From Candidatus Nomurabacteria bacterium (GTDB lineage Bacteria > Patescibacteriota > Patescibacteriia > HK-STAS-PATE-3), in assembly GCA_023898465.1 (NCBI GenBank), contig CP060223.1:256001-320000 (forward strand): 64,000 nt of DNA, written 5' to 3'. The position numbers and the translations under genes are program-made. This document shows, piece by piece, positions 16,941 through 45,392 of the stretch. The number at the start of each line of letters is the position of its first letter. Positions within the stretch are counted from its first letter, which is position 1. The notes beneath the pieces are model-generated. The model searched no databases and was not told the origin of the DNA. It saw nothing but the letters and a program-made list of their open reading frames with translations.

Positions 16941-17600
16941 ATGTTAGGTTATCTTTTGCTCATTATATCGGTTGTAGAGTTTTTTATTGGCCTGTACCTT
17001 ATTTTTCGCTATGAAAAAAGCCAGGCAACAACATATTACGGTCTCTTTGCAATAAGTGTTGCGATCTATGTTGCCGCGAACGGTTTCGGATTTACCCGAG
17101 CTTCTGATAACGAGTTTATTTTTGAGCAACTTGCTTGGTTTGGCGGCTTACTTAGCGCCCCATTTATCCTTGGCTTCAGTTATAGCTTTCCTAGCCCTAA
17201 AAAATATCCCACTGAGCTATTTCCGTGGGTAATTTGGCCAGTAGTGTTATTTGGCGCAGGAATTTTTACTTCAAATATTTTCCTGGAGAAAACGTATATT
17301 TATTCCTTTGCCGAAGGCTACACTGCGCCAATCGGTGTCTTTTTCTGGTTCGCCATTGCAGTATTTGCGATGTATTGGATATGGGCAATACGAAACCTGC
17401 TGTATACGAGATTGCACACAAGCGGTTTTTATAGGAATTTTCTTACCATTGTGCTCATAGGGCTTTTTTCATCACTGCTTATTTCAGCAATTTTTGATAT
17501 TTACATTCCCTTAGTTTCAGTCACGCGCTACGGATATATTGGAGCATTATTCTCGTCTATTTGGCTGTTTACTACCGCGTATTTAATGGTGAGGAAGTAA
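16941..17600 (+). CDS. Stand-alone 7TM module, paralog 1 (histidine-kinase N-terminal 7TM-like)
   Basis: 219 aa with about 7 hydrophobic helices. Aligns by eye with the first 230 aa or so of the kinase at 23014. Ends ...TTAYLMVRK* where the kinase reads ...ISYAIIRHR and continues. Confidence 0.8.
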   Translation: MLGYLLLIISVVEFFIGLYLIFRYEKSQATTYYGLFAISVAIYVAANGFGFTRASDNEFIFEQLAWFGGLLSAPFILGFSYSFPSPKKYPTELFPWVIWPVVLFGAGIFTSNIFLEKTYIYSFAEGYTAPIGVFFWFAIAVFAMYWIWAIRNLLYTRLHTSGFYRNFLTIVLIGLFSSLLISAIFDIYIPLVSVTRYGYIGALFSSIWLFTTAYLMVRK

Positions 17601-17601
17601 G

Positions 17602-18261
17602 ATGATTGGATATATATTACTCATTATCTCAGTTGTTGAAGTAATACTCGGTTTTTATTTGATTTTTCGATATGTAAAAAGTCCAGCAACTATATATTAC
17701 GGCCTATTCGCGCTAAGTGTAGCACTCTATGTAGGTGCAAACGGGTATGGTTTTAGTCCGTTTTCAGAAAATGATATATGGCTGGAAATAATTGCCTGGA
17801 TTGGCGGGACCTTTACCGCTCCTTTTATTCTTGGCTTCAGTTACTCATTCCCTTATCCACGTAAGTCCAATAAGGAAATACTGTCTTTAGTTCTTAGTCC
17901 ACTCGTTTTTTTCTTCGTCGTAATACTTTTTTCTAATACTTTTGTAGATCATAATAGTGTTATCAGCTTTGATGAAGGATTTCAAAGACCTGTCGGGGAG
18001 TTACACTGGTTTGTATTATCAGTATTCTTTTTCTATTGGGTTTGGTCTTTTATTGAACTAGTAAAGAGTCGAAAAAAATCCGACGGCTTTAATAAGAATT
18101 TTCTTCTTATTTTAATTATAGGCTTAGTTTTTTCTTTGTTGGTTTCGGTATTTACTAACATCATTCATCCACTTGTCGATGTTTCAAAGTTAGGTTATAT
18201 GGGCCCCTTAGCCTCTTCAATCTGGCTATTTATTACTGGGTACTTGATATTGAGGAAGTAA
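17602..18261 (+). CDS. Stand-alone 7TM module, paralog 2
   Basis: 219 aa, collinear with paralog 1 (LLIISVVE..YLIFRY.KS.AT.YYGLFA, APFILGFSYSFP, SSIWLF). Starts 1 nt after the upstream stop. Confidence 0.8.
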   Translation: MIGYILLIISVVEVILGFYLIFRYVKSPATIYYGLFALSVALYVGANGYGFSPFSENDIWLEIIAWIGGTFTAPFILGFSYSFPYPRKSNKEILSLVLSPLVFFFVVILFSNTFVDHNSVISFDEGFQRPVGELHWFVLSVFFFYWVWSFIELVKSRKKSDGFNKNFLLILIIGLVFSLLVSVFTNIIHPLVDVSKLGYMGPLASSIWLFITGYLILRK

Positions 18262-18932
18262 TGAACACCTTTCATTTAGTTTTACTTTTTACACTTTTCT
18301 TTATTCACGCGACTCTCGCAATATGGATGTTGCGTAGATATGTGCAGACGCTATCCATTCGTTATTACTCAGGCTTTTTATTTGGACTAGCACTTATTGC
18401 ACTATTAAATGGTTTATTGCTGTTATTTGGCGGTCAGGAGAGTCAAACAGTCCTTCATAAGATCGGCTTTATCTCAGGCACCTTCACTTTTGTGATGTTC
18501 TTTATGTTTAGTAAGTACTTTCCAATTTCTACTGCAAGACCAAACTCCCGCGACATTCTTTTTTGGGTAATTCCGATTACATTTTTTATTCCATTCATAC
18601 TTTTTAATCAGCAGTTTATCCAGTCTGTGATTATAGAAAATGGAATAAGTAAGCCTACATTTGGAGTCTGGTATACACCATTTATGTTAGTTTTGGCCAC
18701 CTTTGTTCTGGGGGCTATCTATAATCTCATACAGAAATATAAAATAACCACTGAACTTGAAATTAGGAAGAACATTAGAGACATTACGGCAGTATTTTTC
18801 GTATCAGGACTCCTTGGCTTTTTGTTGGACGTTGTGTTGCCAAGGTTTAATGTTTATACGGCACATTACTTTGCCATTGAATCTTCACTTTTTGTTGCGC
18901 TAACTACTGCAATTATTATTGCAAAGAAGTAA
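18261..18932 (+). CDS. Stand-alone 7TM module, paralog 3 (divergent)
   Basis: 223 aa with the same helix layout. TAATG overlap with paralog 2. Ends ...AIIIAKK*. Confidence 0.75.
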   Translation: MNTFHLVLLFTLFFIHATLAIWMLRRYVQTLSIRYYSGFLFGLALIALLNGLLLLFGGQESQTVLHKIGFISGTFTFVMFFMFSKYFPISTARPNSRDILFWVIPITFFIPFILFNQQFIQSVIIENGISKPTFGVWYTPFMLVLATFVLGAIYNLIQKYKITTELEIRKNIRDITAVFFVSGLLGFLLDVVLPRFNVYTAHYFAIESSLFVALTTAIIIAKK

Positions 18933-18933
18933 G

Positions 18934-19605
18934 ATGAAAGAGTTTCTCATCATTGCAAATTATCTGGTTGGAATAGGGGAGTTGATGCTCGCTGGATATT
19001 TTTGGAAAACAAACAGCGGCAGCGCAATTCGGAAGGTGATGGTGTTGTTGGCGTTTTCGACTGGTATGTGGGTCATTTTTACCGGAACCTTTACCTACCG
19101 CTGGATTTTGCTTGATTACTTTGATCTCGGCATATCATTTGTATATTTCTTTGGAATTTTGTTCCTTACCGCCTTACTTCATTTAGTAATTCTCTTTCCT
19201 CACAAGATTTTCCCGTTTGATAGGCTACATACAGTTTTGTTGTATATTCCAACACTCATATTAGGTTTTGCCGCTTTTACTCCAGCGATAATTAAAGAAA
19301 ATATCACTCCGTCGAGCGGGTATACCACAAGTTATCCCGGACCAGCACATTGGATGTTTAATAGCTATCTTTTTCTCATGTATGCAATGGTGATAATCCT
19401 ACTCATTGTTAAGATCAAGCGTTTTGATGGATTTAGCAGAGATAACGCAAAAACTTTGCTTTGGGGTATTATTTTAGGCGGCCTACCCATCGTTTTCTTA
19501 GATTTGGTTTTGACAACTTTGGGCATCTACCCAAATGCTGCCGTTGCCAGCCTTTTCACAGTTGTCTGGCTTGGGTTTACTACTTACATAATTGTACGGA
19601 AATGA
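18934..19605 (+). CDS. Stand-alone 7TM module, paralog 4
   Basis: The ATG at 18934 lies 1 nt after the paralog 3 stop (ORF track start is 18919). Ends ...TTYIIVRK*. Confidence 0.75.
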   Translation: MKEFLIIANYLVGIGELMLAGYFWKTNSGSAIRKVMVLLAFSTGMWVIFTGTFTYRWILLDYFDLGISFVYFFGILFLTALLHLVILFPHKIFPFDRLHTVLLYIPTLILGFAAFTPAIIKENITPSSGYTTSYPGPAHWMFNSYLFLMYAMVIILLIVKIKRFDGFSRDNAKTLLWGIILGGLPIVFLDLVLTTLGIYPNAAVASLFTVVWLGFTTYIIVRK

Positions 19606-20288
19606 ACGGAGAAATAGTATTTTTTGATTTAATTTTACTTAGCGTTGTTGGATTATTAGAATTAGCCTTTGGGATTTATTTAATAGTCCGTTATGTGAGG
19701 ACAAGTTCGATAGTATTTTTTGCACTTTTCGTTTTCTTTCTTTCTTTGTGGGTGCTTACAAATGCGGCTGCTTTCGTAATACCAATACATAATGTCTTCT
19801 TTGATATTGATTCAAAGTTGAGTTTTGTTTTTGCAATATTACTTTTTCCAGCGCTATACTTATATGTAATTAATTTTCCCATCCCTACAATATTAATAAA
19901 TTGGCGTTTAATACTTTTTGTGTTTACTGCGCCAATACTTCTTAGTACAATGATTTTAGGGTCGGGAACGGTTGTATTTGGATTTGATAAATTGATAGAG
20001 AATCAGCCAACTATATTTGGAGAAGCTTTTTGGGCCTATTCTTTTTATATGTTGTTCATGTATGCAATTATTTTATTTGAATTAATAAGGCAGATTAATA
20101 AGTCCAAGGGTTCTCACAGATGGTATGCACAAATTTTATTTTTTGCTGTTTTCATTTCTGGCGCAATAGGGCTATTATTTAATCTTGTTCTGCCTTCGAT
20201 GTTCGATATTAGAATTGCTTATTGGATAGCCCCATCTAGTTCAATTATTTGGCTTGCTCTTGTTTGGTGGGCGACGCAGAGGAAATAA
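19602..20288 (+). CDS. Stand-alone 7TM module, paralog 5
   Basis: ATGA overlap with paralog 4. The ORF track start at 19461 runs inside paralog 4. Ends ...SSSIIWLALVWWATQRK*. Confidence 0.75.
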   Translation: MNGEIVFFDLILLSVVGLLELAFGIYLIVRYVRTSSIVFFALFVFFLSLWVLTNAAAFVIPIHNVFFDIDSKLSFVFAILLFPALYLYVINFPIPTILINWRLILFVFTAPILLSTMILGSGTVVFGFDKLIENQPTIFGEAFWAYSFYMLFMYAIILFELIRQINKSKGSHRWYAQILFFAVFISGAIGLLFNLVLPSMFDIRIAYWIAPSSSIIWLALVWWATQRK

Positions 20289-20290
20289 TT

Positions 20291-20959
20291 ATGGATTATG
20301 GTGTATACTTATTATTAGTTATTGCGGGCCTAGAACTTTGGTTGACAATATACATATTTACTCGCTACCAAAGAACAAAAGCTATTTTTTTCTTTGGACT
20401 CTTTACTGCTTGTGTGACTGGATGGGTGCTAACTAATTCTATTCCGCTTCTTTTTTCCTATTCAAGTTGGCAATCTGATTTTTTGCAACGCCTCTCGTTT
20501 TCTTTTGCTGCATTTATTTTTCCTTTTCTTTATTATTATATTCTTTTACATCCATTTCCAAGCATTGATATCAACAAGCGATTCATATTATTCACATCCC
20601 TCCCGGCCTTCTTTGTTTCTATTGCCACTCTCTTTGATAAAAACTTTGTTATAGGATTCTATGATACCTCAGTAAGGGCAACAATATACGGCGACTCTTT
20701 TTGGATGTATGCGGTAGTTATGTTGCTATTTGCAATTCTTATTCCTGTGGAAATAATTTTAAAAAGAAGAAGACTGGATGGATATTATCGCTACCAATTC
20801 AAATTATTATTCAGCGCCTATTTGTTTTCAGCGGCAGTAGGATTACTAATTAATTTAATATTGCCATATTTTTTCGACTTAAAAATTAACTATTGGCTTG
20901 GGCCCGCGTCATCGATTATTTGGGTGAGTATGGTTTGGTGGGTTATTAATAGAAGGTAA
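20291..20959 (+). CDS. Stand-alone 7TM module, paralog 6
   Basis: The ATG lies 2 nt after the paralog 5 stop. Closest to paralog 5 (..ASSIIWVSMVWWVINRR*). Confidence 0.75.
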   Translation: MDYGVYLLLVIAGLELWLTIYIFTRYQRTKAIFFFGLFTACVTGWVLTNSIPLLFSYSSWQSDFLQRLSFSFAAFIFPFLYYYILLHPFPSIDINKRFILFTSLPAFFVSIATLFDKNFVIGFYDTSVRATIYGDSFWMYAVVMLLFAILIPVEIILKRRRLDGYYRYQFKLLFSAYLFSAAVGLLINLILPYFFDLKINYWLGPASSIIWVSMVWWVINRR

Positions 20960-20981
20960 TGTTTAATTGCGATTTTCAAAA

Positions 20982-21641
20982 ATGACAATAGGACATGTAG
21001 TTGAAGAATTTAAAAGTCGGTATATTAAAAGACAACTAGATCATAATTTTATTGTTTTAGAGACTCAAAATAACAACCAACTAAATTTATCATATAGATT
21101 AAGATACGAAGTATATTGTCTAGAATGTAAATATTTAGACGTGAATAATTATCCCAATAGGTCTGAAAAGGATGAGTATGATGATTGTTCAATACATTTC
21201 ATCGCAATAAATAAAAAGACAAAAAATGTTGTTGGCACAATTCGACTTATTAAACGCACTAATAGGAATTTGCCAATAGAGCATGATTTTGGAATTTCTC
21301 TGAATGGATCAATTAGTTCTAAAAAAGTTGTGGAGATTTCTAGACTAGCGGTTGATAAAAAATTTAGGAAGTCGAGTTTAAAGCATCCAAGTATTATGTT
21401 AGGTTTATTAAAAGCATGCTATAGATACGCCGAAGAAAATGGAATTGCAATGTTTGTAGCGGCAATAGATCAAAATGTATATAATATGTTAAAAAAGTTT
21501 CGTTTTTCATTTAATTTATTAGGGGAACCAAAACATTATATGGGTTCAATCTCAGTACCCGTGTTAATTGATATCGAAAAAGAATCGCAGTGGTTAAAAA
21601 TAGTAAATCCTGGACTATGGACATTTCTTTCAAGCAATTAG
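20982..21641 (+). CDS. GNAT-fold N-acyl amino acid / acyl-homoserine-lactone-synthase-like acyltransferase (FeeM / PEP-CTERM-associated acyltransferase-like)
   Basis: LSYRLRYEVYCLECKYLD, IHFIAI...VVGTIRLI, VVEISRLAVDKKFR and MFVAAID follow the pattern I recall for the LuxI-related Acetyltransf_5/N-acyl amino acid synthase family. The ORF track starts at the TTG at 20967; the ATG at 20982 is preferred. Confidence 0.55.
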   Translation: MTIGHVVEEFKSRYIKRQLDHNFIVLETQNNNQLNLSYRLRYEVYCLECKYLDVNNYPNRSEKDEYDDCSIHFIAINKKTKNVVGTIRLIKRTNRNLPIEHDFGISLNGSISSKKVVEISRLAVDKKFRKSSLKHPSIMLGLLKACYRYAEENGIAMFVAAIDQNVYNMLKKFRFSFNLLGEPKHYMGSISVPVLIDIEKESQWLKIVNPGLWTFLSSN

Positions 21642-22276
21642 CTCATAAAATTGTATTATTCTATTTAAGACGGGCTAGCCACAAAAAATACCTAACATTT
21701 AGCTTTAGCGATCTTATTATACTCTGTCCCCCAAACGTGTTCCCGCCTAATTCGTTTACCACTGACCTAATGGCTAAGTGGCTAGTAAACGAAGAGATGG
21801 AAGGTAAACAGGTTTTAGAGATGGGTTGTGGAAGTGGATACATTTCGATTATTGCCGCACGAAAAGGGGCAAAAGTAATTGCAAGCGACATCAGCCCTAT
21901 CGCGGTTGATGCCGCAAAAATCAATACCATAATAAATAAGATAAAAAATGTCGAATGTTATTGCTCGGACTTATTTTCTAACTTAGAAGGAAAGTTTGAT
22001 TTAATTCTCTTCAACGCACCTTTTTTTCATGGAGAACCCACTTCTTTATTAGATAACAATTGGATGAGTAAGGATGGGGAGGTGGTCAGTAAATTTTTTA
22101 AAGACGCAAGAGAATATATTAATCCAATGGGGAAGGTAGTTATTACTAGTTCGACTCTAGTTAATCAAGATGCTCTGAAAATATTAATTAAAGAAAGCGG
22201 ATTTAATATTGAAAACGTGAAAACAAAAAATATTATTATTGAAAAATTTTTCTTGTATGAATGTAGAGCTTTTTAA
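21617..22276 (+). CDS. Class I SAM-dependent methyltransferase (HemK/PrmC-like amino-methyltransferase pattern)
   Basis: Motif I is VLEMGCGSGYISI, the acidic loop is ASDIS, and motif IV is FNAPFF (an NPPY-like variant). The start is ambiguous (GTG at 21590 or ATG at 21617) and overlaps the upstream gene. Confidence 0.7.
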   Translation: MDISFKQLAHKIVLFYLRRASHKKYLTFSFSDLIILCPPNVFPPNSFTTDLMAKWLVNEEMEGKQVLEMGCGSGYISIIAARKGAKVIASDISPIAVDAAKINTIINKIKNVECYCSDLFSNLEGKFDLILFNAPFFHGEPTSLLDNNWMSKDGEVVSKFFKDAREYINPMGKVVITSSTLVNQDALKILIKESGFNIENVKTKNIIIEKFFLYECRAF

Positions 22277-23021
22277 TAGAAATCAACCATTTATAACTAA
22301 AAAAGAACAAAAAATTCTCACAAAACAGAAAGTTTGTTTTATTGGATGTGGTCTTGCAAGTCAAGCCGCACTCCTTATTGCCAGGACAGGTATTGGAAAA
22401 ATAGTACTTTGTGATGGAGACAAGGTCGAGTTGAGTAATCTTAACAGGCAAGCATTTGACATTGGTGATATTGGAGAAAACAAAGCAGAAAGCTTAATGA
22501 GAAAGATATTAAGCATCAATTCAAATATTGAAGTGGAGCAGTATCCGGTTTTTTTAAAAAAATCGATTATTTCAAATGTAATAAAAGATTCAGATATTGT
22601 AGTGAGCACAGTTGATGCGGGTCCTTTATATTTTGAAATTCAGGAATATATTAATAAAAAAGGCATTATGGGAATATTCCCCATGAATATTGCCTTTGGA
22701 TCACTCGTATTCGTATCAAAAAATGGAAAGGGTGATTTTAAATCGTTATTTGGGGAGAAATTACCTGAAAATAATTCTGAATTTTTTTATCAACTTTACA
22801 ATAAACTTAAACAAAATGTACCAAGCTATTTATCTCCTCATATTGAAATCTTATTAAGTGGATTTAAAACAAACAGTCCAATTCCACAGCTAGGATTAAC
22901 GACTTTACTTACCGCATCTTTGATTACTGAGATAATACTGGCTGGGAACAGGGCTGAGCAATTATTGTTAACTCCAAGATTCTATTATTTTGATATTCGT
23001 GAATTCGTTCGAAATGGATAA
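22257..23021 (+). CDS. ThiF/MoeB/HesA-family E1-like adenylyltransferase
   Basis: KVCFIGCGLASQAALLIARTGIGKIVLCDGDKVELSNLNRQ carries the canonical ThiF nucleotide-binding signature. The protein is about 254 aa with no rhodanese or CxxC tail. It overlaps both neighbours. Confidence 0.75.
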   Translation: MNVELFNRNQPFITKKEQKILTKQKVCFIGCGLASQAALLIARTGIGKIVLCDGDKVELSNLNRQAFDIGDIGENKAESLMRKILSINSNIEVEQYPVFLKKSIISNVIKDSDIVVSTVDAGPLYFEIQEYINKKGIMGIFPMNIAFGSLVFVSKNGKGDFKSLFGEKLPENNSEFFYQLYNKLKQNVPSYLSPHIEILLSGFKTNSPIPQLGLTTLLTASLITEIILAGNRAEQLLLTPRFYYFDIREFVRNG

Positions 23022-25785
23022 ATTGCTAATCCCACAAAATTTAGCACTTATTATATTGCTCTTCGGATATTTAAGTCTGATAATTCTTCTTTTGAGACGC
23101 GAGAACACAAGTAGTAGATTATTTGGTGCTACCGTTATTACTCTCTCTCTTTGGATATTATCAATTTTACTTTTAAATATCAGCTCCTCAAAAGAAGAAA
23201 TTTTATTCTTTTCGCGATCGTCATTTATCGGGCCAATTATTCTCATACCAACATTCCTTCTTTTTTCTTGGTATTTTCCGAAAAAAACTATACATCTAAG
23301 GAAAAGTATTATTATTGTCGTTTCTTTAACGGCATGCTTCTTTTTAATTGCGACGTTTACGCCGTATGTAATTCAAGATGTCACAATAAAAGTAGGTGAA
23401 GGAGTCAGTCTAACCTATCAACTTGGAACACTATATTTTTTCCAATTTATTTTTTTAGCATTCTCATTACTTTATTCTTTTTTTATTCTTTATAAAAAAT
23501 ATAAAAAATCAAAAGGCCTAGAAAAATTACAAATTAGATATCTTTTTCTTGGCACCGTTATTACTGCAGTATTGACCTTGAGTACTAACGTAATTTTACC
23601 AATTTTTAATTTTTCATCTCTTGCTGGATTTGGCCCTCTTAGTACTCTATTTCTCTTATTTTTTATTTCATATGCCATCATCCGCCACCGCCTCCTCGAC
23701 ATCCGTCTTGTTATCACGCGTTCCTTAATTTATTTTTTCCTTATCCTGTTCGTCGCAGGATCATTTACTGGAATTACCTTACTCGCAAAGTTATTATTTG
23801 AAGAATTTGTTGGTGAAATAACCGCTACAATACTTGTTTCTCTCATCATCGTTATTGGTTTCGAGCCATTGAAGCGATGGGTCTCTCGTTCTACTGACTC
23901 GGTTTTTTATAAGGCAAAAATTGACTACGCTGATGTGTTGCGGGAAATCAGCGAAATTATTAACCGTGAAATTGTCCTGGATCCGCTCGTCACCTCCATC
24001 AGCGCCACGCTTGAGAGTAGGCTCAAGCTCAAGCACGCGGGCATTGCATTGAAAAGCGCCAAGGGGGATTTTGTTGAATACATAAACCACGATCACTTTG
24101 ATCCCAAAACCTTTTCCAGCCGATCCGGTATGATCGGATTCTTACGTTTCACATCTCGTATCACCATTTTAGAATCGCTCGAGCGCAAAATTCAGGACAC
24201 GAGCGAAGGGGACGAATTAAAAGAGTTGAAGCGATCGCGCGAGGAAATGGAAACGAACCACATTGCCTTAGCTGCTCCGATTGTGGCGCAAGGCAAATTC
24301 AACGCAGTCCTCATCCTGGGGCCGAAACTTTCCGGTGATAGCTTCTCGACCGAAGAGTTGAAGATGATTGAAACGTTGACTCCGCAGATCGGATCAGCGA
24401 TTGAGAAATCCATGCTCTTCGAAGAGGTGAAGAACTTCTCCAGTCAATTAAAGGTGAAAGTTGATGAGGCGACAAAGGAGTTGAAAGAGCGCAATCGTTT
24501 CCTTGGCGCTTTGCAGGATATCACGAGCACCATTACGCACTCTCTTGATTACAAAAAAGTAGGACAGGACATTGTGGACGGAGTAGCCAAGAAGCTCGGT
24601 TACATCGGTGCCGTGCTCCTGCTCTATGATCCAAAGACTGGCCAGTCATGGGCTGAGGCAATTACGCAAACGCCGGTTACTCGCGCGGCAATGAAATTAC
24701 TGCCCAAGCCGGTGAACGAATACCATGGGCACGTGGATGAGAATTCCATGACCGACCAAGTTATTTTGACTGGTGAAATGCGCGAAAGTGATTCACTAGC
24801 TGAATTCTTAGCACCGGCCGTGCCTAAAGCTTTTTGTTTCGCCATGCAGAAGTTGATTCGCGCAAAGTATATTGTGGCAGTGCCAATCTATGCCGAGGGT
24901 GAAATTCTCGGTGCCTTGGTTTTTGTGCTCGGGAAGAAGAAAGAGGAGATCAGTAGTCAGGAGCGGGCTATGATGATCGCTTTAGGTGACCAGGCCGGAA
25001 TCGTGCTGCACAATATTAAACTCTTTGATCGCATCCAGGATACGAATAAGCAGTTGGAGCAGGCGAATGAACACTTGAAGCAGCTTGATCAAGCTAAGTC
25101 GGAATTCGTCTCCATTGCCTCGCACCAATTACGCACGCCGATGACTGGCATTATGGGCTATCTTTCCATGATGGTGCAGGGGGATTTCGGTAAAATGGAG
25201 CCGGAGCACACCAAACTGCTGACTGAATTGTTGAGTGAGAGTCAGCGCATGATTCGTCTCATCAACCTCTTCTTGAACGTCTCAAAGATTGAGTCAGGTA
25301 AGATGACGATTAACAAGCAGCCGACGCAGATTAAGGATCTCATTGACCAACAGATTAAGGATCAGAAAAAGCCAGCCGAGGATAAAGGATTGGTGCTGAA
25401 AGTGGAAGTTGATAAAGAGCTGCCGATAATTGAAGCTGACGGTGATAAGCTCATGAACGTGGTGCAGAACCTGATTGATAACGCTATCAAATATACAGAG
25501 CGGGGAAGCGTGACTGTTCGCGCCTTTCAGACCGATGGCCATATCCAGGTAGAAATTCAAGACACTGGCGTTGGTATTAAGCGCGAAGATGTGCATGAAC
25601 TCTTTGGTAAGTTTGTGCGCGGGTCTGGCATTGCGCAGATCAATCCTGATGGCTCCGGTCTCGGACTCTTTATTGCCAAGTCAATTGTGGAAATGCACGG
25701 CGGTAAGATTTGGGTAGAATCAGAAGGTGAAGGGAAAGGTACTAAATTCGCATTCACGATACCAATTACACAGCCGAAAAAATGA
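23014..25785 (+). CDS. Sensor histidine kinase: N-terminal 7TM module + GAF-like regions + HisKA + HATPase_c
   Basis: About 230 aa of 7TM region, then long soluble GAF-like regions. H-box FVSIASHQLRTPMT, N-box NLIDNAIKYT, G-boxes DTGVGI and GSGLGL. The ATG at 23014 overlaps the ThiF stop by 8 nt. Confidence 0.9.
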   Translation: MDKLLIPQNLALIILLFGYLSLIILLLRRENTSSRLFGATVITLSLWILSILLLNISSSKEEILFFSRSSFIGPIILIPTFLLFSWYFPKKTIHLRKSIIIVVSLTACFFLIATFTPYVIQDVTIKVGEGVSLTYQLGTLYFFQFIFLAFSLLYSFFILYKKYKKSKGLEKLQIRYLFLGTVITAVLTLSTNVILPIFNFSSLAGFGPLSTLFLLFFISYAIIRHRLLDIRLVITRSLIYFFLILFVAGSFTGITLLAKLLFEEFVGEITATILVSLIIVIGFEPLKRWVSRSTDSVFYKAKIDYADVLREISEIINREIVLDPLVTSISATLESRLKLKHAGIALKSAKGDFVEYINHDHFDPKTFSSRSGMIGFLRFTSRITILESLERKIQDTSEGDELKELKRSREEMETNHIALAAPIVAQGKFNAVLILGPKLSGDSFSTEELKMIETLTPQIGSAIEKSMLFEEVKNFSSQLKVKVDEATKELKERNRFLGALQDITSTITHSLDYKKVGQDIVDGVAKKLGYIGAVLLLYDPKTGQSWAEAITQTPVTRAAMKLLPKPVNEYHGHVDENSMTDQVILTGEMRESDSLAEFLAPAVPKAFCFAMQKLIRAKYIVAVPIYAEGEILGALVFVLGKKKEEISSQERAMMIALGDQAGIVLHNIKLFDRIQDTNKQLEQANEHLKQLDQAKSEFVSIASHQLRTPMTGIMGYLSMMVQGDFGKMEPEHTKLLTELLSESQRMIRLINLFLNVSKIESGKMTINKQPTQIKDLIDQQIKDQKKPAEDKGLVLKVEVDKELPIIEADGDKLMNVVQNLIDNAIKYTERGSVTVRAFQTDGHIQVEIQDTGVGIKREDVHELFGKFVRGSGIAQINPDGSGLGLFIAKSIVEMHGGKIWVESEGEGKGTKFAFTIPITQPKK

Positions 25786-39666: not shown

Positions 39667-42600
39667 ATGGACTCTGCCCCATTAACACTACAAACGAAGA
39701 CACTGCAGAGGTCTTCCGATCTAAATAATTACAGACTCTATCGCGCAGCTCTTGAATGGGAGTTGATTGATCCTATTGTCATAGAAGACCGGGATGACAT
39801 GCATTCCGAAAGTAGTTGGCGTGATCGTCTTGAGCCGTATCATCATCAAGTAACTAACCTAATAACTTTTTGTCGTCGCCTACCTGTTACTTTACTGGCG
39901 GATGATGTCGGGTTAGGAAAAACAATTAGTGCTGGCCTAGTTTTAAGCGAGTTAATTTCGCGCGGGAGAATTTCAAAAATATTAATAGTTTGCCCAAAAA
40001 TACTTCGAGATCAGTGGAAAGAAGAATTGGAAATAAAGTTCCGAATTCCGTCCACAATTGTGACAGGAAGAGAATTAATTACGGCAAAGCCTCCTGAAGA
40101 ACCAGGAGCGGTAATTACCACATACAATACGGCCAGACTGTATTTAGATAGAATTGACCAGAATGGTTTTGAAATATTGATACTTGATGAGGCGCATAAA
40201 TTGCGGAATCTATATGGTGTTGACCCAACACCTCAAGTTGCAATTAAATTCCGTAAAGCTCTGGCTGACCGGATGTTTAAGTACGTATTAATGTTAACTG
40301 CAACGCCGATCCAGAACAGACTATGGGATCTCTACTCGTTGGTTGACTTATTAACCGTTGCACGCGGCCATGAAAATCCCTTTGGAACGCCAGGTATTTT
40401 TGCGAGAAAATTTATTGCAGATAGTCGCACACAAGCGCGTCAGCTTAATCCGGAGATGCGGGATGAGTTTCGCTCAATTATTTACGGTTATATGTCTCGG
40501 GTTCGTCGTGGAGATGCAAAACTCCACTTCCCAGAGCGGGTAGTACAGTTGCATAAAGTTGACCCAACACCAGAAGAATTGCAGTTGATCGGTGTGGTCG
40601 GAAAATCTATACAACAACTGAATGCGCTTACACAAATTGTAATCCTCCAAGCTTTGGTGAGTAGTCCAGAAGCGCTAATAAAGATGTTAGAAGGAATGGC
40701 TAAAAAAGGAACCGTACCGCGTGAGGTGTTGGCGAACGTTAAGGAATCAGCCAAAGAAATTCAAATCACTACAAAACTAAAAGGTTTGGGCGCGTTAGTT
40801 GAAAAACTTAGAAAGGAGCAACCCAATACTTGGCGGGTGGTAGTTTTTACAAGATGGCGAGAAACTCAAACAACTATCGAAACTTTTCTTGAAAAGCAAG
40901 GAGTAAAATGCGGCTTGATAAATGGCGATTCAAGTAAGCGAAATCAGGAAACAATCCAAAGATTTAAAAAAGACTTACCAGACATTAATGTAATTATTTC
41001 TACTGAAGCAGGTTCGGAGGGCGTTAACCTTCAGGCCGCTAATGTTTTGGTTAATTACGATCTCCCCTGGAATCCAATGATAGTGGAACAAAGAATAGGT
41101 CGTATTCAAAGACTTGCTTCTAATTATGCAAATGTTTCTATTTTTAATATTGTTTTGCAAAATACCTTTGAAGAATATATTGTAGGGCGCTTGATGGAAA
41201 AGTTGCAGATGGCTTCTCATGCAATTGGGGATATTGAAGCACTATTGGAAGCATCCGGCATTGATGAAGGTGAAGAAAATGGCTCAAGTGGTTTTGAAGA
41301 AAAAATTCGCCAGTTAGTAGTTGCATCTTTAGCTGGAAAAGATGTTGAGCAGGCAACTCGTAAAGCTGAACAGAGTATTTCAGAAGCTAAAACAGAATTA
41401 GACCATGAAGAAAAGAACATTAATGCTTTACTTGGGGGGATGAGTGATTCTCTAGATTCTGGTCCAAGATGTCCGAAGCTTCCTCAAACTACTAAGTCGA
41501 TGGATGTCCGTGATTTTACTACGGCTGCTCTTATGAGCTTAGGCGCGGAACTACATCCAAAAAAGGATGGTTTATTAGTTTCACAACTTGCTGGGAAAAA
41601 AGAATTAATCCGATTTGATAATAACACTCTGAGCAGTGAAGAGGAGAGTGTCTTATATGCACCGGGAACTTCAACTTTTGAACGCTTAGTCCATAAAGTT
41701 GCAAATGTAGGAAAACACATTGTTGAAGACCTTGATAAAAACCCCCAACAGCAAATTGAGAAAGTAAGTCGTCAATGGGTCGAAAGTTTTGGCGGAGACT
41801 TCGAAAATGTAACGGTAGAGGACGTTTCTCGATGTTTTGCAGGAGTAGCAATAATTCGTGCAAGATCAACAGTAGCTCACGATAGTTATGAGCGTCTCAT
41901 TGAGGTTTCGTGCGCTCCCACTGAGCATTTCAGTTTTGTGACAAGAACGGGATTGGAACCCATCGGAGACTATATTGAAAATCCGACATCTGTTGGTGCG
42001 CTTTCAGAAAAATTAATTGAAAAAGCCAGCCAAGACTCGAGTATTCTTGAGTTCTGTAGATTTTATTTAGAACGAAGATCTCAAGAAATTGCCTCCGCAG
42101 GAAATGACGAAAGAAAAAAGAAAAAGCTTGAGGATGAGTTTACGCCCCGTCTTGAATTTTCCCTAGTCGGTCTTGAGGGCAAGGTTCATCGGATAGTTAA
42201 AAATCAGGTCTCTTATAGAATTGAACGTGAGGGCCAATACAAAAGTACCCTCATGATAACCCCCTCTTCTGGGCAAGTTGATATGCCGGGGATGGGACAA
42301 TGCATGAAAACAGGTAAGACTGTACCGAGCGATTGCTTAGCAAAGTGCGAAATAAGCGGACTTATAGTATTGCGGCATTTTCTTGATCAATCAGAGATCA
42401 GTAATCGACTGGCGCTCCCTGAGCACATCGTTTTATGTACGTTAAGCAACAAGCGAGTGCTAGCGGACGAAGCTATAAAATCAGATGTTACGGGCAAACT
42501 AGTCGCAAAGAAGTTTTTAAAAACATCTTCTCTGAGTGGCAAATTCGCTGAACCACAGTTCATTAACACTTGTGAGTTTACAAAAACAGAAGTTCTGGAA

Positions 42601-43194
42601 AGCGAAATTGCGGTCAGCCAGATTTCAGGAAAAAGATATCGCATTGATGAGCAACTTAAATCCGCAGTTTCAGGAAAACTAGGCCATCGACAAGAATTTG
42701 TAGCAAGTAGTATTTCATCAGCCCCACTTCTTGAAGAAGAAGCCATTCGTTCGGTCACTGGAAAATTTTGTGCACCAATGGAAGCGAGGCCCTGCACTTG
42801 GAGTGGTCGAAAGTGTCACCCCGAAGACCTTAGGACTTGCGAGTTGACCGGAGTCCAAATTCATTCAGAGTACGTAACGCTCGAACCACCAATTCGTTTA
42901 GAAACCCTAAATAATCTTTTGAATGGCACGAGGAGCAAATCTGACAAATTGGAAGTATGGCCTTCACTTTCAAATAGCGTTACAGCTTTATTAAAAGCAA
43001 AACGTTGTAAAATTGAAACAGCAGAAGTTTCACCTAGTGACGATATTTTGGCCGCTTCTATAGAGCTTCGAACTTTTCTAGGCCTGCGCGTGAGTCACAT
43101 TGGCGTACTTTATTCAATAAAGGATGGATCCGTAGTCGGGCGTGTTGCTAGAGGCAAGCGTGGTGATAAGGGCTGGAATCAAACTAAGAACTAA
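39667..43194 (+). CDS. SNF2-family helicase/translocase with a long C-terminal extension containing 15-residue repeats
   Basis: Motif I LADDVGLGKT, motif II LILDEAHKLRN, motif III LMLTATPIQN, helicase-C STEAGSEGVNLQ and QRIGRIQRL. About 650 further aa follow. AT-rich relative to the flanks. Confidence 0.85.
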   Translation: MDSAPLTLQTKTLQRSSDLNNYRLYRAALEWELIDPIVIEDRDDMHSESSWRDRLEPYHHQVTNLITFCRRLPVTLLADDVGLGKTISAGLVLSELISRGRISKILIVCPKILRDQWKEELEIKFRIPSTIVTGRELITAKPPEEPGAVITTYNTARLYLDRIDQNGFEILILDEAHKLRNLYGVDPTPQVAIKFRKALADRMFKYVLMLTATPIQNRLWDLYSLVDLLTVARGHENPFGTPGIFARKFIADSRTQARQLNPEMRDEFRSIIYGYMSRVRRGDAKLHFPERVVQLHKVDPTPEELQLIGVVGKSIQQLNALTQIVILQALVSSPEALIKMLEGMAKKGTVPREVLANVKESAKEIQITTKLKGLGALVEKLRKEQPNTWRVVVFTRWRETQTTIETFLEKQGVKCGLINGDSSKRNQETIQRFKKDLPDINVIISTEAGSEGVNLQAANVLVNYDLPWNPMIVEQRIGRIQRLASNYANVSIFNIVLQNTFEEYIVGRLMEKLQMASHAIGDIEALLEASGIDEGEENGSSGFEEKIRQLVVASLAGKDVEQATRKAEQSISEAKTELDHEEKNINALLGGMSDSLDSGPRCPKLPQTTKSMDVRDFTTAALMSLGAELHPKKDGLLVSQLAGKKELIRFDNNTLSSEEESVLYAPGTSTFERLVHKVANVGKHIVEDLDKNPQQQIEKVSRQWVESFGGDFENVTVEDVSRCFAGVAIIRARSTVAHDSYERLIEVSCAPTEHFSFVTRTGLEPIGDYIENPTSVGALSEKLIEKASQDSSILEFCRFYLERRSQEIASAGNDERKKKKLEDEFTPRLEFSLVGLEGKVHRIVKNQVSYRIEREGQYKSTLMITPSSGQVDMPGMGQCMKTGKTVPSDCLAKCEISGLIVLRHFLDQSEISNRLALPEHIVLCTLSNKRVLADEAIKSDVTGKLVAKKFLKTSSLSGKFAEPQFINTCEFTKTEVLESEIAVSQISGKRYRIDEQLKSAVSGKLGHRQEFVASSISSAPLLEEEAIRSVTGKFCAPMEARPCTWSGRKCHPEDLRTCELTGVQIHSEYVTLEPPIRLETLNNLLNGTRSKSDKLEVWPSLSNSVTALLKAKRCKIETAEVSPSDDILAASIELRTFLGLRVSHIGVLYSIKDGSVVGRVARGKRGDKGWNQTKN

Positions 43195-43195
43195 T

Positions 43196-44686
43196 ATGAA
43201 CCCTCTACTTACAAAAACCGATTATCTTCTTTACCGGGAATGCCCAAAGAATGTTTGGTATAAAATCCAAAAACCTGAATTGTATGCTACATCGGAGCTA
43301 ACAGAGTTTGAAAAATCGATAATGGAAACAGGTAATGAGGTTGAAAAGATTGCAAGGCAACTTTTTCCAAACGGGGTGTTAGTAACTTATCGTGATGCGC
43401 GCGGTCAAGCTGAGACACAAAAGCTATTGGCGGAGAACAAGGATGTGATTTTTCAGCCAGTTTTTGTCAAAAATAACTTTTTGGCTGCTATTGATGTTCT
43501 ACAAAAAGAAAAGAATGGCAAGGGCTACAATGTTTACGAAATAAAATCGACTAGTGATGTAGATAAGAAAACACATTTTCACGACCTAGCATTTCAAGTA
43601 AACGTTCTCAGAATGACAGGCCTGGGAATTAATAAATCATTTGTCATTCATCTAAACTCTGAATATATTCGAAAGGGAGAAATTGAGCTGGATCAGTTAT
43701 TTAAAGTATCAGATGTGACGGATGAAGTAGAAAGTCTTTTACCGGATGTTGCGACTGAGGCGGAAGAAGCATTGAAGTATATTAGCCAAACTTCTGAACC
43801 AGAGGGGTACTGCTGCTGTATTTATAAAGGTCGATCAAGGCATTGTTCAACCTTTCAGCTAGCGAACCCCGAAGTACCCGAATATAGTGTCCACGATATT
43901 TCTAGGATAGGGGTAAGCAAGGCTAAATTAAAAGAGCTAATTGACGGAAGTATTTTTCACCTGGACAAGATTCCGCCACACATTAAATTAAGCGAAATTC
44001 AACAAGGTCAAGTTGAAACCTATAAATTGAATAAGGTATTAGTAGATAAGGAAAGAATTGCGGAAGAATTTAGTGGTCTCACATTCCCACTTTATTTTCT
44101 TGATTATGAAACATTTCCATCAGCAATACCAAGATATGATGGCTTTTCACCATATAAACAAATTCCGTTCCAGTATTCTGTTTACAAACTAGATTCAGTC
44201 GAGAGTGAGCCAACTCATTTTGATTTTTTGTACTCTGGTCCCGAAGACCCCAGCAAGCACTTTGCCGAGTCTTTAAGGGAACATATCGGGGATAAAGGCT
44301 CGATCATCGTTTGGCATAAAGACTTCGAGTGTGGCAGAAATAATGAAATAGGTAGTCGAATTCCTACTTCGAAGGCTTTTTTTGACTCTGTTAATCAGCG
44401 AGTATACGATCTCGAAGACATTTTCAAGAAACAATACCACGTTCATCGAGATTATAAGGGAAGCACATCTATTAAAAACGTATTGCCTGTTTTAGTGCCA
44501 GAATTAACGTATAAAGACCTTGAAATTCGTGATGGTGGCAGTGCAGCGGATAGTTGGGACAAAATAATTAGTGGTGTATATAACGAGACAGAGAAAGAAA
44601 AGGTAATAAAAGATTTAAAGATTTATTGTGGTCTTGATACATTTGCAATGTATGCTATTTGGAATTGCTTGAACAAGCTACTCTAA
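43196..44686 (+). CDS. DUF2779-like dual nuclease (N-terminal Cas4/RecB-like PD-(D/E)XK with Cys cluster + C-terminal DEDD-type exonuclease-like half)
   Basis: The ATG lies 1 nt after the SNF2 stop. YRECPKNVW ... AAIDVL ... VYEIKS ... GYCCCIYKGRSRHC gives a D..ExK motif plus four Cys. The C-terminal half has YFLDYET, WHKDFE, and YCGLDTFAMY. Confidence 0.65.
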   Translation: MNPLLTKTDYLLYRECPKNVWYKIQKPELYATSELTEFEKSIMETGNEVEKIARQLFPNGVLVTYRDARGQAETQKLLAENKDVIFQPVFVKNNFLAAIDVLQKEKNGKGYNVYEIKSTSDVDKKTHFHDLAFQVNVLRMTGLGINKSFVIHLNSEYIRKGEIELDQLFKVSDVTDEVESLLPDVATEAEEALKYISQTSEPEGYCCCIYKGRSRHCSTFQLANPEVPEYSVHDISRIGVSKAKLKELIDGSIFHLDKIPPHIKLSEIQQGQVETYKLNKVLVDKERIAEEFSGLTFPLYFLDYETFPSAIPRYDGFSPYKQIPFQYSVYKLDSVESEPTHFDFLYSGPEDPSKHFAESLREHIGDKGSIIVWHKDFECGRNNEIGSRIPTSKAFFDSVNQRVYDLEDIFKKQYHVHRDYKGSTSIKNVLPVLVPELTYKDLEIRDGGSAADSWDKIISGVYNETEKEKVIKDLKIYCGLDTFAMYAIWNCLNKLL

Positions 44687-44690
44687 ACCT

Positions 44691-45392
44691 ATGAGCTTTC
44701 TTAAGATTTTTAGTGATGATTCTAAAGACAAGCCAAAAGAAAATGATAGTCGGAAACCTGAATGTCCATACTGTCAGGGCGTTTTAGTTAAAATTCCTGC
44801 TAGAAAAACAAAATGTTTTCACTGTGGGAAATATATTTTTGTACGAACACAGACAAAGGACAGAAAGCTCGTTTTGGTTACTGAAGAAAATTCGGCCGCG
44901 ATAGACTCTGAATGGGAGTCAAAACAAGCCGCTACGATCACTTCATTGGTGGAGAAAGTAGATTTTACAAAGAAAAAAGAAGGTCTGCGCGAAGGGTTTG
45001 GGGACAAGGAACCCTCCGTTAGTGACATAAAGTGGGGCTTGTGGAACAAGAGGCTTCAGGAAGCAATGAAACGCAATGATTTTTCAGAACTTTCAGGAAT
45101 ATATTTTCAAATGGCTCTGCGCTTGCACGAAAGTGGAAAAGACAGCTTTAAACTTCAGGGCCAGGCTCAAAAAATGTTTTTGTTTAAAGAAAAGCAAAGC
45201 GGTGTTGTTTCTAGCGTAGAGGTTTTTTCTAGAGATGGCTGTGAAGAATGTAAGAAAATAAACGGAAAGAAATTTGTTATTTTTGAAGCACTAAAACTCA
45301 TGCCACTACCCGTTCAATCCTGCACAAACAAACTGAATAAGAATGCGCCCAATGGTTGGTGTCGATGCACTTTTCTTCCTTTTATAGATTAA
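44691..45392 (+). CDS. Hypothetical protein with N- and C-terminal zinc-ribbon-like Cys motifs
   Basis: CPYCQG-x17-CFHCGK at the N-terminus. CEECKK ... SCTN ... GWCRCTF at the C-terminus. The middle is predicted helical. Confidence 0.5.
   Translation: MSFLKIFSDDSKDKPKENDSRKPECPYCQGVLVKIPARKTKCFHCGKYIFVRTQTKDRKLVLVTEENSAAIDSEWESKQAATITSLVEKVDFTKKKEGLREGFGDKEPSVSDIKWGLWNKRLQEAMKRNDFSELSGIYFQMALRLHESGKDSFKLQGQAQKMFLFKEKQSGVVSSVEVFSRDGCEECKKINGKKFVIFEALKLMPLPVQSCTNKLNKNAPNGWCRCTFLPFID

What the first reader, a model, noticed from the sequence alone, without database searches (positions are those of the whole stretch)
42301..42882. Thirteen tandem 15-residue repeats (degenerate CxxCG-type knuckles) in the SNF2 C-terminal extension
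From codon 879 the protein reads in strict 15-residue register, with one 14-residue unit:
- CMKTGKTVPSDCLAK
- CEISGLIVLRHFLDQ
- SEISNRLALPEHIVL
- CTLSNKRVLADEAIK
- SDVTGKLVAKKFLKT
- SSLSGKFAEPQFINT
- CEFTKTEVLESEIAV
- SQISGKRYRIDEQLK
- SAVSGKLGHRQEFVA
- SSISSAPLLEEEAIR
- SVTGKFCAPMEARP
- CTWSGRKCHPEDLRT
- CELTGVQIHSEYVTL

The consensus is [C/S]-x-[hydrophobic]-[S/T]-G-[K/R]-x8-9. This looks like a zinc-knuckle (C-x-x-C-G-K) array in which most second cysteines, and half of the first, have become Ser/Thr. It would be a metal-free solenoid of ribbon-like hairpins. Such a periodic module on an SNF2 motor could be a nucleic-acid ruler or recognition surface.
Basis: seen in the sequence. Interest (0 to 1): 0.6.

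Follow-up and report, generated by a model that had tools for sequence, protein, structure and literature searches.

The report
Quantised hairpin-repeat rod on SNF2 ATPase
The tail of this bacterial SNF2 motor protein really consists of thirteen 15-residue repeats, predicted with high confidence to form a regular structure that matches no described family. Relatives carry 13 to 73 repeats and change length almost only four repeats at a time, which suggests a rigid spacer whose length and twist both matter.

Summary
Residues 879-1072 of the 1175-aa SNF2 protein (39667..43194) are 13 tandem 15-residue units; period 15 gives z=9.3, against at most 4.6 in shuffles. AlphaFold2 predicts the array at pLDDT 94-98. 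Each unit is a knuckle-like loop (C/S-x-h-S/T-G-K/R), a strand, a one-turn helix and a strand.

The array defines an unnamed SNF2 family: 670 clusters at 50% identity, in at least nine phyla.

New result: unit number is 4k+1 (13, 17, 21 ... 73) in 53 of 62 full-length members. Three independent 13-unit forms, the window's among them, each lost exactly four units at a different place.

"Metal-free" is unproven, because Cys is conserved unit by unit and Cys/His clusters cap both ends.

Best reading: a rigid, phase-locked spacer rod between the motor and a small C-terminal domain. A Cas4/RNase H-like nuclease gene (DUF2779) is adjacent in 8 of 36 loci. Function is inferred, not shown.

The parts
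39667..43194 (+). Gene for the 1175-aa SNF2 ATPase that carries the repeat array. Stop codon TAA at 43192-43194.
   Evidence: ORF list; Pfam SNF2-rel_dom and Helicase_C; the identical protein occurs on two contigs of an independent assembly.
39889..41115 (+). SNF2 motor core: SNF2-rel_dom residues 75-307 and Helicase_C residues 381-483.
   Evidence: The best NCBIfam/PADLOC matches are DrmD, BrxH, DpdE and ZorD models, all far below their cutoffs.
41116..42300 (+). Middle region, residues 484-878. It has long helices, then alpha/beta modules with very long beta-hairpins, and contains the near-invariant motif V-A-H-D-S-Y-E-R-L (residues 736-744). Fold and function are unassigned.
42301..42882 (+). 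The finding: 13 tandem 15-residue units, residues 879-1072. Consensus: 1 C/S, 3 hydrophobic, 4 S/T, 5 G, 6 K/R, 8-9 hydrophobic, 10 P, 11-12 D/E, 13 hydrophobic.
   Evidence: AF2 pLDDT 94-98 with the DSSP pattern loop(1-6)-E(7-9)-H(10-12)-E(13-15) per unit.
42301..42378 (+). N-terminal cap of the array, units 1-2. C879, C890, C894 and H904 are a candidate Cys3His metal site. P887 is invariant family-wide.
   Evidence: In the 17-unit subfamily: C 100%, C@12 97%, C 97%, H@11 94%. Family-wide: C1 100%, P9 100%, C12 60%, H11 86%. Metal binding is inferred, not shown.
42694..42705 (+). Junction of the in-register deletion of four units. Units 10-13 of the 17-unit form, the 'CCCC' block, are absent between ...GHRQEF and VASSIS...
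   Evidence: A 60-column gap in alignment A1; unit-by-unit alignment to L019.
42769..42840 (+). C-terminal cap of the array, units 11-13. C1035, C1043, W1045, H1051 and C1058 include a candidate Cys3His site.
   Evidence: >=90% conserved in A1. Family-wide, C at position 1 of the last two units is 97% and W is 93%, but H is only 16%.
42883..43191 (+). C-terminal alpha+beta domain, residues about 1073-1175: two helices packed on a five-stranded antiparallel sheet.
43196..44686 (+). Partner gene DUF2779: a Cas4-like PD-(D/E)XK domain plus an RNase H-like predicted 3'-5' exonuclease. Its ATG lies 1 nt after the SNF2 stop codon.
   Evidence: Pfam PF11074 at 8.6e-36; PADLOC Cas4 at 4.8e-7; sequence at the junction. 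It is adjacent and on the same strand in 8 of 36 loci. Domain interpretation comes from PMC3985635 and PMC13621843.
44691..45392 (+). 233-aa protein with CxxC...CxxC motifs, the third gene of the low-GC island. Whether it belongs to the module is doubtful.
   Evidence: Only weak sub-threshold Pfam hits. It is not found beside other family members. It shares the 41% GC of the island.

Best explanation
Shown or directly computed. The region is an ancient, conserved tandem-repeat domain. Each 15-residue unit is predicted to form a six-residue knuckle-like loop (C/S-x-h-S/T-G-K/R), a three-residue strand, a one-turn helix (P-D/E-E) and a second three-residue strand. The units follow each other without linkers, between the middle region of an SNF2 ATPase and a roughly 100-residue C-terminal alpha+beta domain. 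The array is the hallmark of an unnamed, widely distributed SNF2 family. Its unit number varies from 13 to 73 but is almost always 4k+1.

Inferred. The units stack into a continuous rigid rod. Four units make one structural super-period, most simply one turn of a superhelix. Length can then change only by whole turns if the C-terminal domain is to keep the same angular register relative to the motor. On this reading the rod is a spacer or ruler. It holds the C-terminal domain, and whatever that domain binds, at a lineage-specific distance from the DNA-translocating motor. The small residue at position 1 and the S/T at position 4 would stabilise each knuckle by hydrogen bonds instead of a metal. 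The Cys/His clusters at the two ends may be true zinc caps.

The gene lies in a low-GC three-gene island. In 8 of 36 loci it is adjacent to a Cas4-like/RNase H-like nuclease gene, with a 1-nt gap in the window. The most likely role is therefore a DNA-tracking module that delivers or licenses nucleolytic processing, in genome conflict or repair.
For: Repeat and predicted structure:
- The repeat is real.
- The prediction is confident and strictly periodic.
- Positions 3, 8, 9 and 13 are hydrophobic in 62-86% of 2052 units, consistent with a continuous core.

Family:
- 670 representatives at E<=1e-3, with full-length members of 1175-2098 aa.
- Motor, middle region, array and C-terminal domain lie in one ORF in nearly all of the genome loci that hold the whole gene, across Nitrospirota, Planctomycetota, Acidobacteriota, Proteobacteria, Patescibacteria, Ignavibacteria, Verrucomicrobiota and Deinococcota.

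Quantisation:
- N is congruent to 1 mod 4 in 53 of 62 representatives, and 13 of the 22 distinct N values are 4k+1 (P=7e-4 on distinct values alone).
- Two different expansion modes both preserve N mod 4. 'SCCC' tetrads are added singly. 'CSS' triplets are added only four at a time, as 12 units.
- Three independent 13-unit forms each lost exactly four units at different sites: units 10-13 in the window, 3-6 in L029 and 5-8 in L032.
- The first two and last two units are always Cys-type, which is cap-like.

Context:
- The island is at 41% GC against 49% in the flanks.
- DUF2779 is adjacent on the same strand in 8 of 36 loci, and recombinases lie nearby in 6.
- Remnant copies exist that are truncated or interrupted by an IS element.

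Precedent: SNF2 remodelers use 'ruler elements' (PMC8163753, found).
Against: - No coordinates were available, so rise, twist, units per turn and Cys-Cys distances were never measured. 'Rod' and 'four units = one turn' are inferences.
- AlphaFold2 can give over-confident regular folds for repeats, and pTM is only 0.60.
- Unit-to-unit similarity peaks at lag 3 as well as lag 12. The sequence super-repeat is therefore 3 and 12, not simply 4. A structural period of 3 with a historical quantum of 4 is not excluded.
- 9 of 62 arrays are not 4k+1.
- Most loci lack DUF2779 or any other conserved partner.
- No defence-system model reaches its cutoff.
- The family was not found in the phage, plasmid or viral collections.
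- The function of the C-terminal domain is unknown.
Confidence: 0.42

Rival explanations
1. Partly metal-bound array. The unit-specifically conserved Cys and His form several tetrahedral zinc sites, and these hold the array together. Candidates are an N-cap Cys3His, the four consecutive Cys-type units 10-13, and a C-cap Cys3His. The array would then be a chain of unusual one-Cys-per-knuckle zinc modules rather than a metal-free solenoid. This can coexist with the spacer-rod idea.
For: - The 17-unit subfamily has 12 Cys and 4 His conserved at >=80% (16 ligands, enough for four sites). Position 1 is strictly Cys or strictly Ser depending on the unit.
- A tetrad of Cys-type units ('CCCC', 'SCCC', 'CCCx') is the module gained or lost in several lineages. 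Four units is also the length quantum.
- The cytoplasm is reducing, so conserved Cys are unlikely to form disulfides (general knowledge).
Against: - Family-wide, the extra ligands are not conserved: C@12 of unit 1 is 60%, and H@9 of unit N-1 is 16%.
- Unit 13 is Ser in 20% of subfamily members.
- Long arrays carry one Cys per three units ('CSS'), which cannot build local four-ligand sites.
- The window protein lacks the CCCC block altogether yet is intact, and it was assembled on two separate contigs of that sequencing run.
- No CxxC pair exists in any unit.
Confidence: 0.3
2. Nucleic-acid-binding ruler. The K/R residues at positions 6-7 form a basic stripe that lies along DNA or RNA, so that the array measures or recognises a length of nucleic acid.
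For: - Positions 6 and 7 are K/R in 54% and 32% of units, and positions 10 and 15 are also often basic.
- The array is attached to a DNA translocase.
- Length variation is quantised.
Against: - Positions 2, 11 and 12 are acidic in 37-49% of units.
- Net charge of whole arrays is about 0 to -0.9 per unit, and +2 in total for the window. This is unlike known DNA-coating repeats.
- No similarity to any nucleic-acid-binding repeat family was found in Pfam, PDB sequence or fold searches.
Confidence: 0.15
3. Protein-interaction or oligomerisation scaffold. The array is a docking surface for partner proteins, or it pairs with the array of a second subunit. Length variation would then reflect partner number or an arms race with inhibitors, not geometry.
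For: - Many short-period repeat domains are binding scaffolds (general knowledge).
- The surface positions of the units are variable and mixed in charge.
- Gene decay and turnover are frequent, as is typical of conflict genes.
Against: - No partner is conserved in most loci.
- Within the 17-unit subfamily each unit is individually conserved across phyla. That argues against rapid diversifying selection.
- A scaffold would not obviously require a 4-unit quantum.
Confidence: 0.12
4. Not a folded domain. The region would be a low-complexity or compositionally biased linker, and its regular prediction would be an AlphaFold artefact.
For: AlphaFold is known to over-regularise some repeats (general knowledge). 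pTM is 0.60.
Against: - There are position-specific hydrophobic, Gly, Pro and C/S patterns over 2052 units.
- Unit-by-unit orthology is conserved across phyla at about 40% identity.
- The repeats are diverged, with no DNA-level repeat.
- Length changes keep strict register.
Confidence: 0.03

Closest known systems
Zinc-knuckle beta-hairpins of FYVE / RIM / Slp4-type zinc fingers (e.g. PDB 2yw8, 1dvp, 2cjs, 5x6t, 1joc)
Tandem Cys-rich knuckle arrays such as the DnaJ CxxCxGxG domain (from general knowledge; not tested here)
   Same: Repeated C-x-x-X-G motifs at hairpin turns give an extended beta-hairpin architecture.
   Different: DnaJ has four CxxCxGxG motifs forming two zinc centres. There is no sequence or fold match here, no second Cys, and a far longer array.
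Short-period beta-solenoids and beta-hairpin superhelices (15-residue-coil insect antifreeze beta-helix, RTX beta-roll, choline-binding beta-hairpin repeats; from general knowledge)
   Same: A short strict period (15 residues), alternating turn and strand segments, a Cys/Ser/Thr ladder, and variable copy number.
Prokaryotic defence-associated SNF2 ATPases: DrmD (DISARM), BrxH (BREX), ZorD (Zorya), DpdE
   Same: The SNF2 motor plus a post-helicase extension match these models best: NF038317 DrmD 1.5e-63, PADLOC BrxHI 2.1e-57. Like ZorD, the motor is combined with a nuclease, here encoded by a separate adjacent gene.
   Different: Scores are far below the family cutoffs (215 vs 610; 73 vs 1500). 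None of the partner genes of those systems lies beside it. None of those models extends into the repeat array in these scans.
Ruler elements of eukaryotic SNF2 chromatin remodelers (PMC8163753)
   Same: In concept, an accessory element attached to an SNF2 motor sets a distance.
   Different: Those rulers are unrelated domains or subunits that act on nucleosome spacing. No homology exists, and the bacterial substrate is unknown. This is an analogy only.

Membership tests
SNF2 family ATPase (Pfam PF00176 + PF00271) | SNF2-related N-lobe and Helicase_C lobe score above the Pfam gathering thresholds | tested here: met
   92.5 bits (cutoff 24.9) and 75.8 bits (cutoff 23.5), residues 75-483.
DISARM DrmD | Full-length match above the NCBIfam equivalog cutoff | tested here: not met
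   NF038317 scores 215.5 against a cutoff of 610, and NF038318 scores 184.3 against 950. The matches cover only the motor and the region up to about residue 663.
DISARM DrmD | Neighbouring drmA/drmB/drmC or drmE and a methyltransferase | tested here: not met
   The neighbours are a GT4 glycosyltransferase, DUF2779, an unknown 233-aa protein and hrcA-grpE-dnaK. No such cluster is conserved across 36 loci.
BREX BrxH / Zorya ZorD / Dpd DpdE | Model match at the family cutoff, plus the system's partner genes | tested here: not met
   ZorD scores 72.9 against 1500 and DpdE 171 against 500. The PADLOC BrxHI hit is partial, covering residues 353-643. No conserved partner other than DUF2779 was found.
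Zinc ribbon / zinc knuckle (CxxC-type) | Two Cys spaced C-x-x-C in each knuckle | tested here: not met
   Position 4 is S 57% / T 37% in 2052 units, and Cys is not among the listed residues. In the 17-unit subfamily, C at position 4 is at most 2% in any unit.
Zinc ribbon / zinc knuckle (CxxC-type) | Knuckle-hairpin local geometry | tested here: inconclusive
Zinc ribbon / zinc knuckle (CxxC-type) | Bound zinc | not testable with these tools
   Candidate Cys3His sets at both ends are conserved in the short subfamily but only partly so family-wide.
Any described repeat or domain family (Pfam-A, NCBIfam, PADLOC, PDB sequences) | A profile or sequence match covering residues 879-1175 | tested here: not met
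   No Pfam family at E<=10 for 42100-43194. No NCBIfam or PADLOC match extends into the array. The PDB profile search gives only a spurious E=0.0034 hit. PHROGs was not scanned.
Beta-solenoid / beta-hairpin superhelix repeat folds | Fold match to a solved solenoid over several coils | tested here: not met

The most novel reading that the evidence does not exclude
The array is a new protein repeat fold. It would be a largely metal-free 'knuckle-hairpin' superhelix with four 15-residue units per turn, used by a previously unrecognised, phylogenetically broad SNF2 family as a rigid, phase-locked molecular ruler. Evolution would tune its length from about 13 to 73 units in whole-turn quanta, setting the distance between a DNA translocase and an effector or sensor domain.
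Probability: 0.3. Interest if true: 0.78.

Novelty: new variant of a known kind. Interest (0 to 1): 0.6.

Why it matters
- SNF2 motors are central to chromatin remodelling and to several bacterial anti-phage systems. What distinguishes their functions is the accessory domains.
- Here a whole family (670 clusters at 50% identity, at least nine phyla) is defined by an accessory module that Pfam, NCBIfam, PADLOC and the PDB do not recognise.
- The 4k+1 rule for unit number was reached by independent deletions and by two different expansion modes. This is a rare, clean evolutionary signature of a geometric constraint on a repeat protein.
- The rule makes the hypothesis directly testable, by adding or removing 1-4 units.
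- If the rod is a ruler, it would be a bacterial counterpart of the ruler elements of eukaryotic remodelers.
- It could also serve as a designable rigid spacer with a 15-residue increment.
- The link to the uncharacterised DUF2779 Cas4/RNase H-like nuclease offers a route into that family's function.

Tried and rejected
- Pfam, NCBIfam and PADLOC scans of the array, middle region and tail found nothing beyond the motor.
- Foldseek against PDB gave no significant hit. The weak ones map to the C-terminal domain.
Whether the fold occurs in other protein contexts therefore remains open.
- The first locus search, with the 51-sequence alignment, failed for lack of a conserved stretch. It was repeated with a closer subset.
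- A metagenome scan for relatives of a 73-unit member found nothing, so the gene context of long-array members is unknown.
- tblastn against plasmids and phages, and a viral-contig scan, were all empty.
- An apparent standalone array protein (P0324, P0328) was rejected. Both start inside the middle domain and are 5'-truncated remnants.
- The 233-aa downstream gene was rejected as a system component because it is not conserved.
- Literature searches for DUF2779+SNF2, zinc-ribbon repeats in SNF2 proteins, 15-residue solenoids and metal-free knuckles found no description of this family.
- The search for homologous proteins returned only proteins under about 870 aa, mostly fragments. Full-length members came only from the exhaustive profile search.
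Full report
**1. The observation**

The ORF 39667..43194 (+) encodes 1175 residues.

BLOSUM62 autocorrelation of this stretch peaks at period 15 (z=9.25), with harmonics at 45, 60 and 30. The best z over any period in 2000 shuffles was 4.63. The preceding 379 residues show nothing comparable.

A profile-based dynamic-programming parser recovers 13 units. Tandem Repeats Finder sees no repeat in the DNA, so the units are old and diverged.

The N-terminal half is a bona fide SNF2 ATPase, with SNF2-rel_dom and Helicase_C well above their Pfam thresholds.

**2. Anatomy of the unit and of the protein**

I pooled 2052 units from 62 full-length family members. The consensus is:

| Position | Composition |
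|---|---|
| 1 | C 57% / S 39% |
| 3 | hydrophobic 78% |
| 4 | S 57% / T 37% |
| 5 | G 72% |
| 6 | K/R 54% |
| 8 | hydrophobic 86% |
| 9 | L 46% |
| 10 | P 30% |
| 11-12 | D/E 44-49% |
| 13 | hydrophobic 84% |

AlphaFold2 was run on residues 733-1175 with 51 aligned homologues. It gives mean pLDDT 88.8, and 94-98 throughout the array. The DSSP pattern is strictly periodic: loop (positions 1-6), strand (7-9), one-turn helix (10-12), strand (13-15).

**3. Is it known?**

- No Pfam-A model matches the array or tail even at E<=10.
- NCBIfam and PADLOC match only the motor. The best matches are DrmD, BrxH, DpdE and ZorD models, all far below their cutoffs.
- A profile search of all PDB sequences finds nothing credible.
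- Foldseek against PDB has no hit at E<=1e-3.
- The AFDB library was not available.
- Literature searches found no description.

The array as a whole has no described counterpart.

**4. The family**

An exhaustive profile search of 1.84 billion representatives finds 670 clusters at E<=1e-3, of which 303 are at E<=1e-30. Full-length members run from 1175 to 2098 aa.

In 33 loci from species-representative genomes, the hosts are MAGs of Nitrospirota, Planctomycetota, Acidobacteriota, Alpha-, Delta- and Gammaproteobacteria, Patescibacteria, Ignavibacteria, Verrucomicrobiota and Deinococcota. The one isolate is Arenimonas donghaensis. In nearly all of the loci that hold the whole gene, the motor, middle region, array and C-terminal domain lie in one ORF.

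The family is absent from the plasmid, phage and viral-contig collections searched. All database members are unnamed or labelled 'hypothetical'.

I found no copy of the array outside this architecture. Apparent short proteins are contig fragments, frameshifted genes, an IS21-truncated remnant or 5'-truncated remnants.

**5. The new result: quantised length**

I measured the array between HMMs for its flanking domains and parsed it into units. The unit numbers and the number of representatives with each value are:

| N | 13 (window) | 17 | 21 | 25 | 29 | 33 | 37 | 41 | 45 | 49 | 57 | 61 | 73 |
|---|---|---|---|---|---|---|---|---|---|---|---|---|---|
| Count | 1 | 8 | 2 | 17 | 4 | 2 | 6 | 3 | 1 | 3 | 1 | 4 | 1 |

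That makes 53 of 62 representatives with N = 4k+1. Counting only distinct values, 13 of 22 are 4k+1 (P=7e-4).

The position-1 patterns show two different ways of growing:
- 'SCCC' tetrads are added one at a time (25 to 29 to 33).
- 'CSS' triplets are added only in fours, as 12 units (25 to 37 to 49 to 61 to 73).

Unit similarity accordingly peaks at lags 3 and 12, with lesser peaks at 4 and 8. Both modes preserve N mod 4.

The most telling evidence comes from the genome loci. Of the 28 arrays that could be parsed, 26 have 17 units and two have 13 (L029, L032). With the window protein that makes three 13-unit forms. Each lacks exactly four consecutive units at a different place:
- the window lacks units 10-13;
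- L029 (Desulfatirhabdium MAG) lacks units 3-6;
- L032 (Patescibacteria MAG) lacks units 5-8.

Independent events of identical size at different sites argue for a structural constraint, not for one inherited duplication boundary.

The window protein is the shortest full-length member seen. Its deletion is not an assembly artefact, because the identical protein occurs on two contigs in an independent assembly of one sequencing run.

**6. Cysteines and metal**

Position 4 is S/T in 94% of units, and Cys there is essentially absent.

'Metal-free' is not shown either. In the 17-unit subfamily, position 1 is about 100% Cys in units 1, 2, 4, 7, 10, 11, 12, 16 and 17 (80% in unit 13). It is 98-100% Ser in units 3, 5, 8, 9 and 14. 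Further conserved residues are C@12 (unit 1), H@11 (unit 2), H@9 (units 9, 16 and 17) and C@7 (unit 15).

This gives candidate Cys3His sets at both ends: C879/C890/C894/H904 and C1035/C1043/H1051/C1058 in the window. It also gives a CCCC block, which is exactly what the window has lost.

Family-wide, only the position-1 Cys of the first two and last two units, P9 of unit 1 and W3 of the penultimate unit are near-invariant. The extra ligands are not. Long 'CSS' arrays cannot form local four-ligand sites.

My reading is that most knuckles are metal-free and stabilised by the position-1/position-4 side chains. The end caps may bind zinc. This needs coordinates or metal analysis.

**7. Context and likely role**

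The SNF2 gene, the DUF2779 gene and a 233-aa gene form a 5.7-kb stretch at 41% GC in a 49% GC background. It lies between a glycosyltransferase gene and hrcA-grpE-dnaK.

The DUF2779 ATG (43196) lies one nucleotide after the SNF2 stop codon. Published analyses describe DUF2779 proteins as an uncharacterised fusion of a Cas4-like PD-(D/E)XK nuclease with an RNase H-like predicted 3'-5' exonuclease (PMC3985635, PMC13621843). PADLOC also sees the Cas4-like part.

Clustering of neighbours over 36 loci finds DUF2779 as the only conserved partner. It is immediately adjacent on the same strand, on either side, in 8 loci. Serine recombinases lie nearby in 6. One remnant copy sits in an island with recombinases, IS21, ThiF/ubiquitin-like genes and a methyltransferase.

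Net charge of the arrays is about zero or slightly negative, which speaks against a general DNA-coating function.

I therefore favour a DNA-translocating SNF2 motor that carries, on a rigid and phase-locked rod, a small terminal domain of unknown specificity. Where DUF2779 is present, the motor would work with that dual nuclease, in genome conflict or DNA repair. The SNF2 identity, the repeat, the predicted regular fold, the family and the quantisation are shown. The rod geometry, 'four units = one turn', the spacer function and the conflict role are inferred.

**8. Verdict**

It is partly unsupported: there is no evidence for decayed CxxC, proven metal-freeness or nucleic-acid binding.

The protein is a new variant of a known kind, an SNF2 ATPase with an undescribed repeat domain. 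The 4k+1 rule is an unexpected and directly testable regularity.

Interest 0.6.

Noticed in passing
window 16941-25785: A low-GC island (33-40% GC against about 49%). It holds about nine tandem same-strand ORFs of 219-275 aa, followed by a 931-aa 7TM-GAF-HisKA-HATPase histidine kinase. Four of the ORFs were scanned. Two are kinase-less HisKA_7TM/7TMR-DISM modules, one gave only a sub-threshold TgpA_N hit, and one (20967..21641) is a FeeM/autoinducer-synthase-like N-acyl amino acid synthase.
   Followed up: partly
window 44691-45392: A 233-aa protein with an N-terminal CPYC...CFHC zinc-ribbon-like motif and a C-terminal CEEC. It has only sub-threshold FYVE/HP1451_C hits. It shares the low GC of the SNF2 island but is not conserved beside other family members.
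   Followed up: partly
window 41872-41898 (residues 736-744): The near-invariant motif V-A-H-D-S-Y-E-R-L, predicted to sit in a very long beta-hairpin of the middle region. H, D, Y and E are invariant in 39 sequences. It may be a catalytic or binding site.
   Followed up: no
L001 1-16762; L037; L039; L040: Family members are often decayed. Examples are an IS21-truncated remnant inside an island with serine recombinases, ThiF/Multi_ubiq/BubE genes and a methyltransferase (L001), a gene called as several pieces (L037), and 5'-truncated copies lacking the motor (L039, L040).
   Followed up: partly
L013 2513-5368; L015 about 2.5 kb upstream of the family gene: A second, different SNF2-type ATPase gene lies 2-2.5 kb upstream on the same strand in two loci.
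   Followed up: no
P0157, P0158, P0165, P0180, P0192 (representative proteins): Some family members have an extra N-terminal extension of about 100-340 residues. Their array starts at residue about 970-1230 instead of about 880. The nature of the extension is unknown.
   Followed up: no
L002 680-3654: In one metagenomic locus, the split SNF2/array gene is preceded by an 800-aa AAA_15/SMC_N-type ATPase and a 182-aa protein. An AAA_15 ATPase also lies about 4 kb downstream in L041. This is a possible alternative partner.
   Followed up: no
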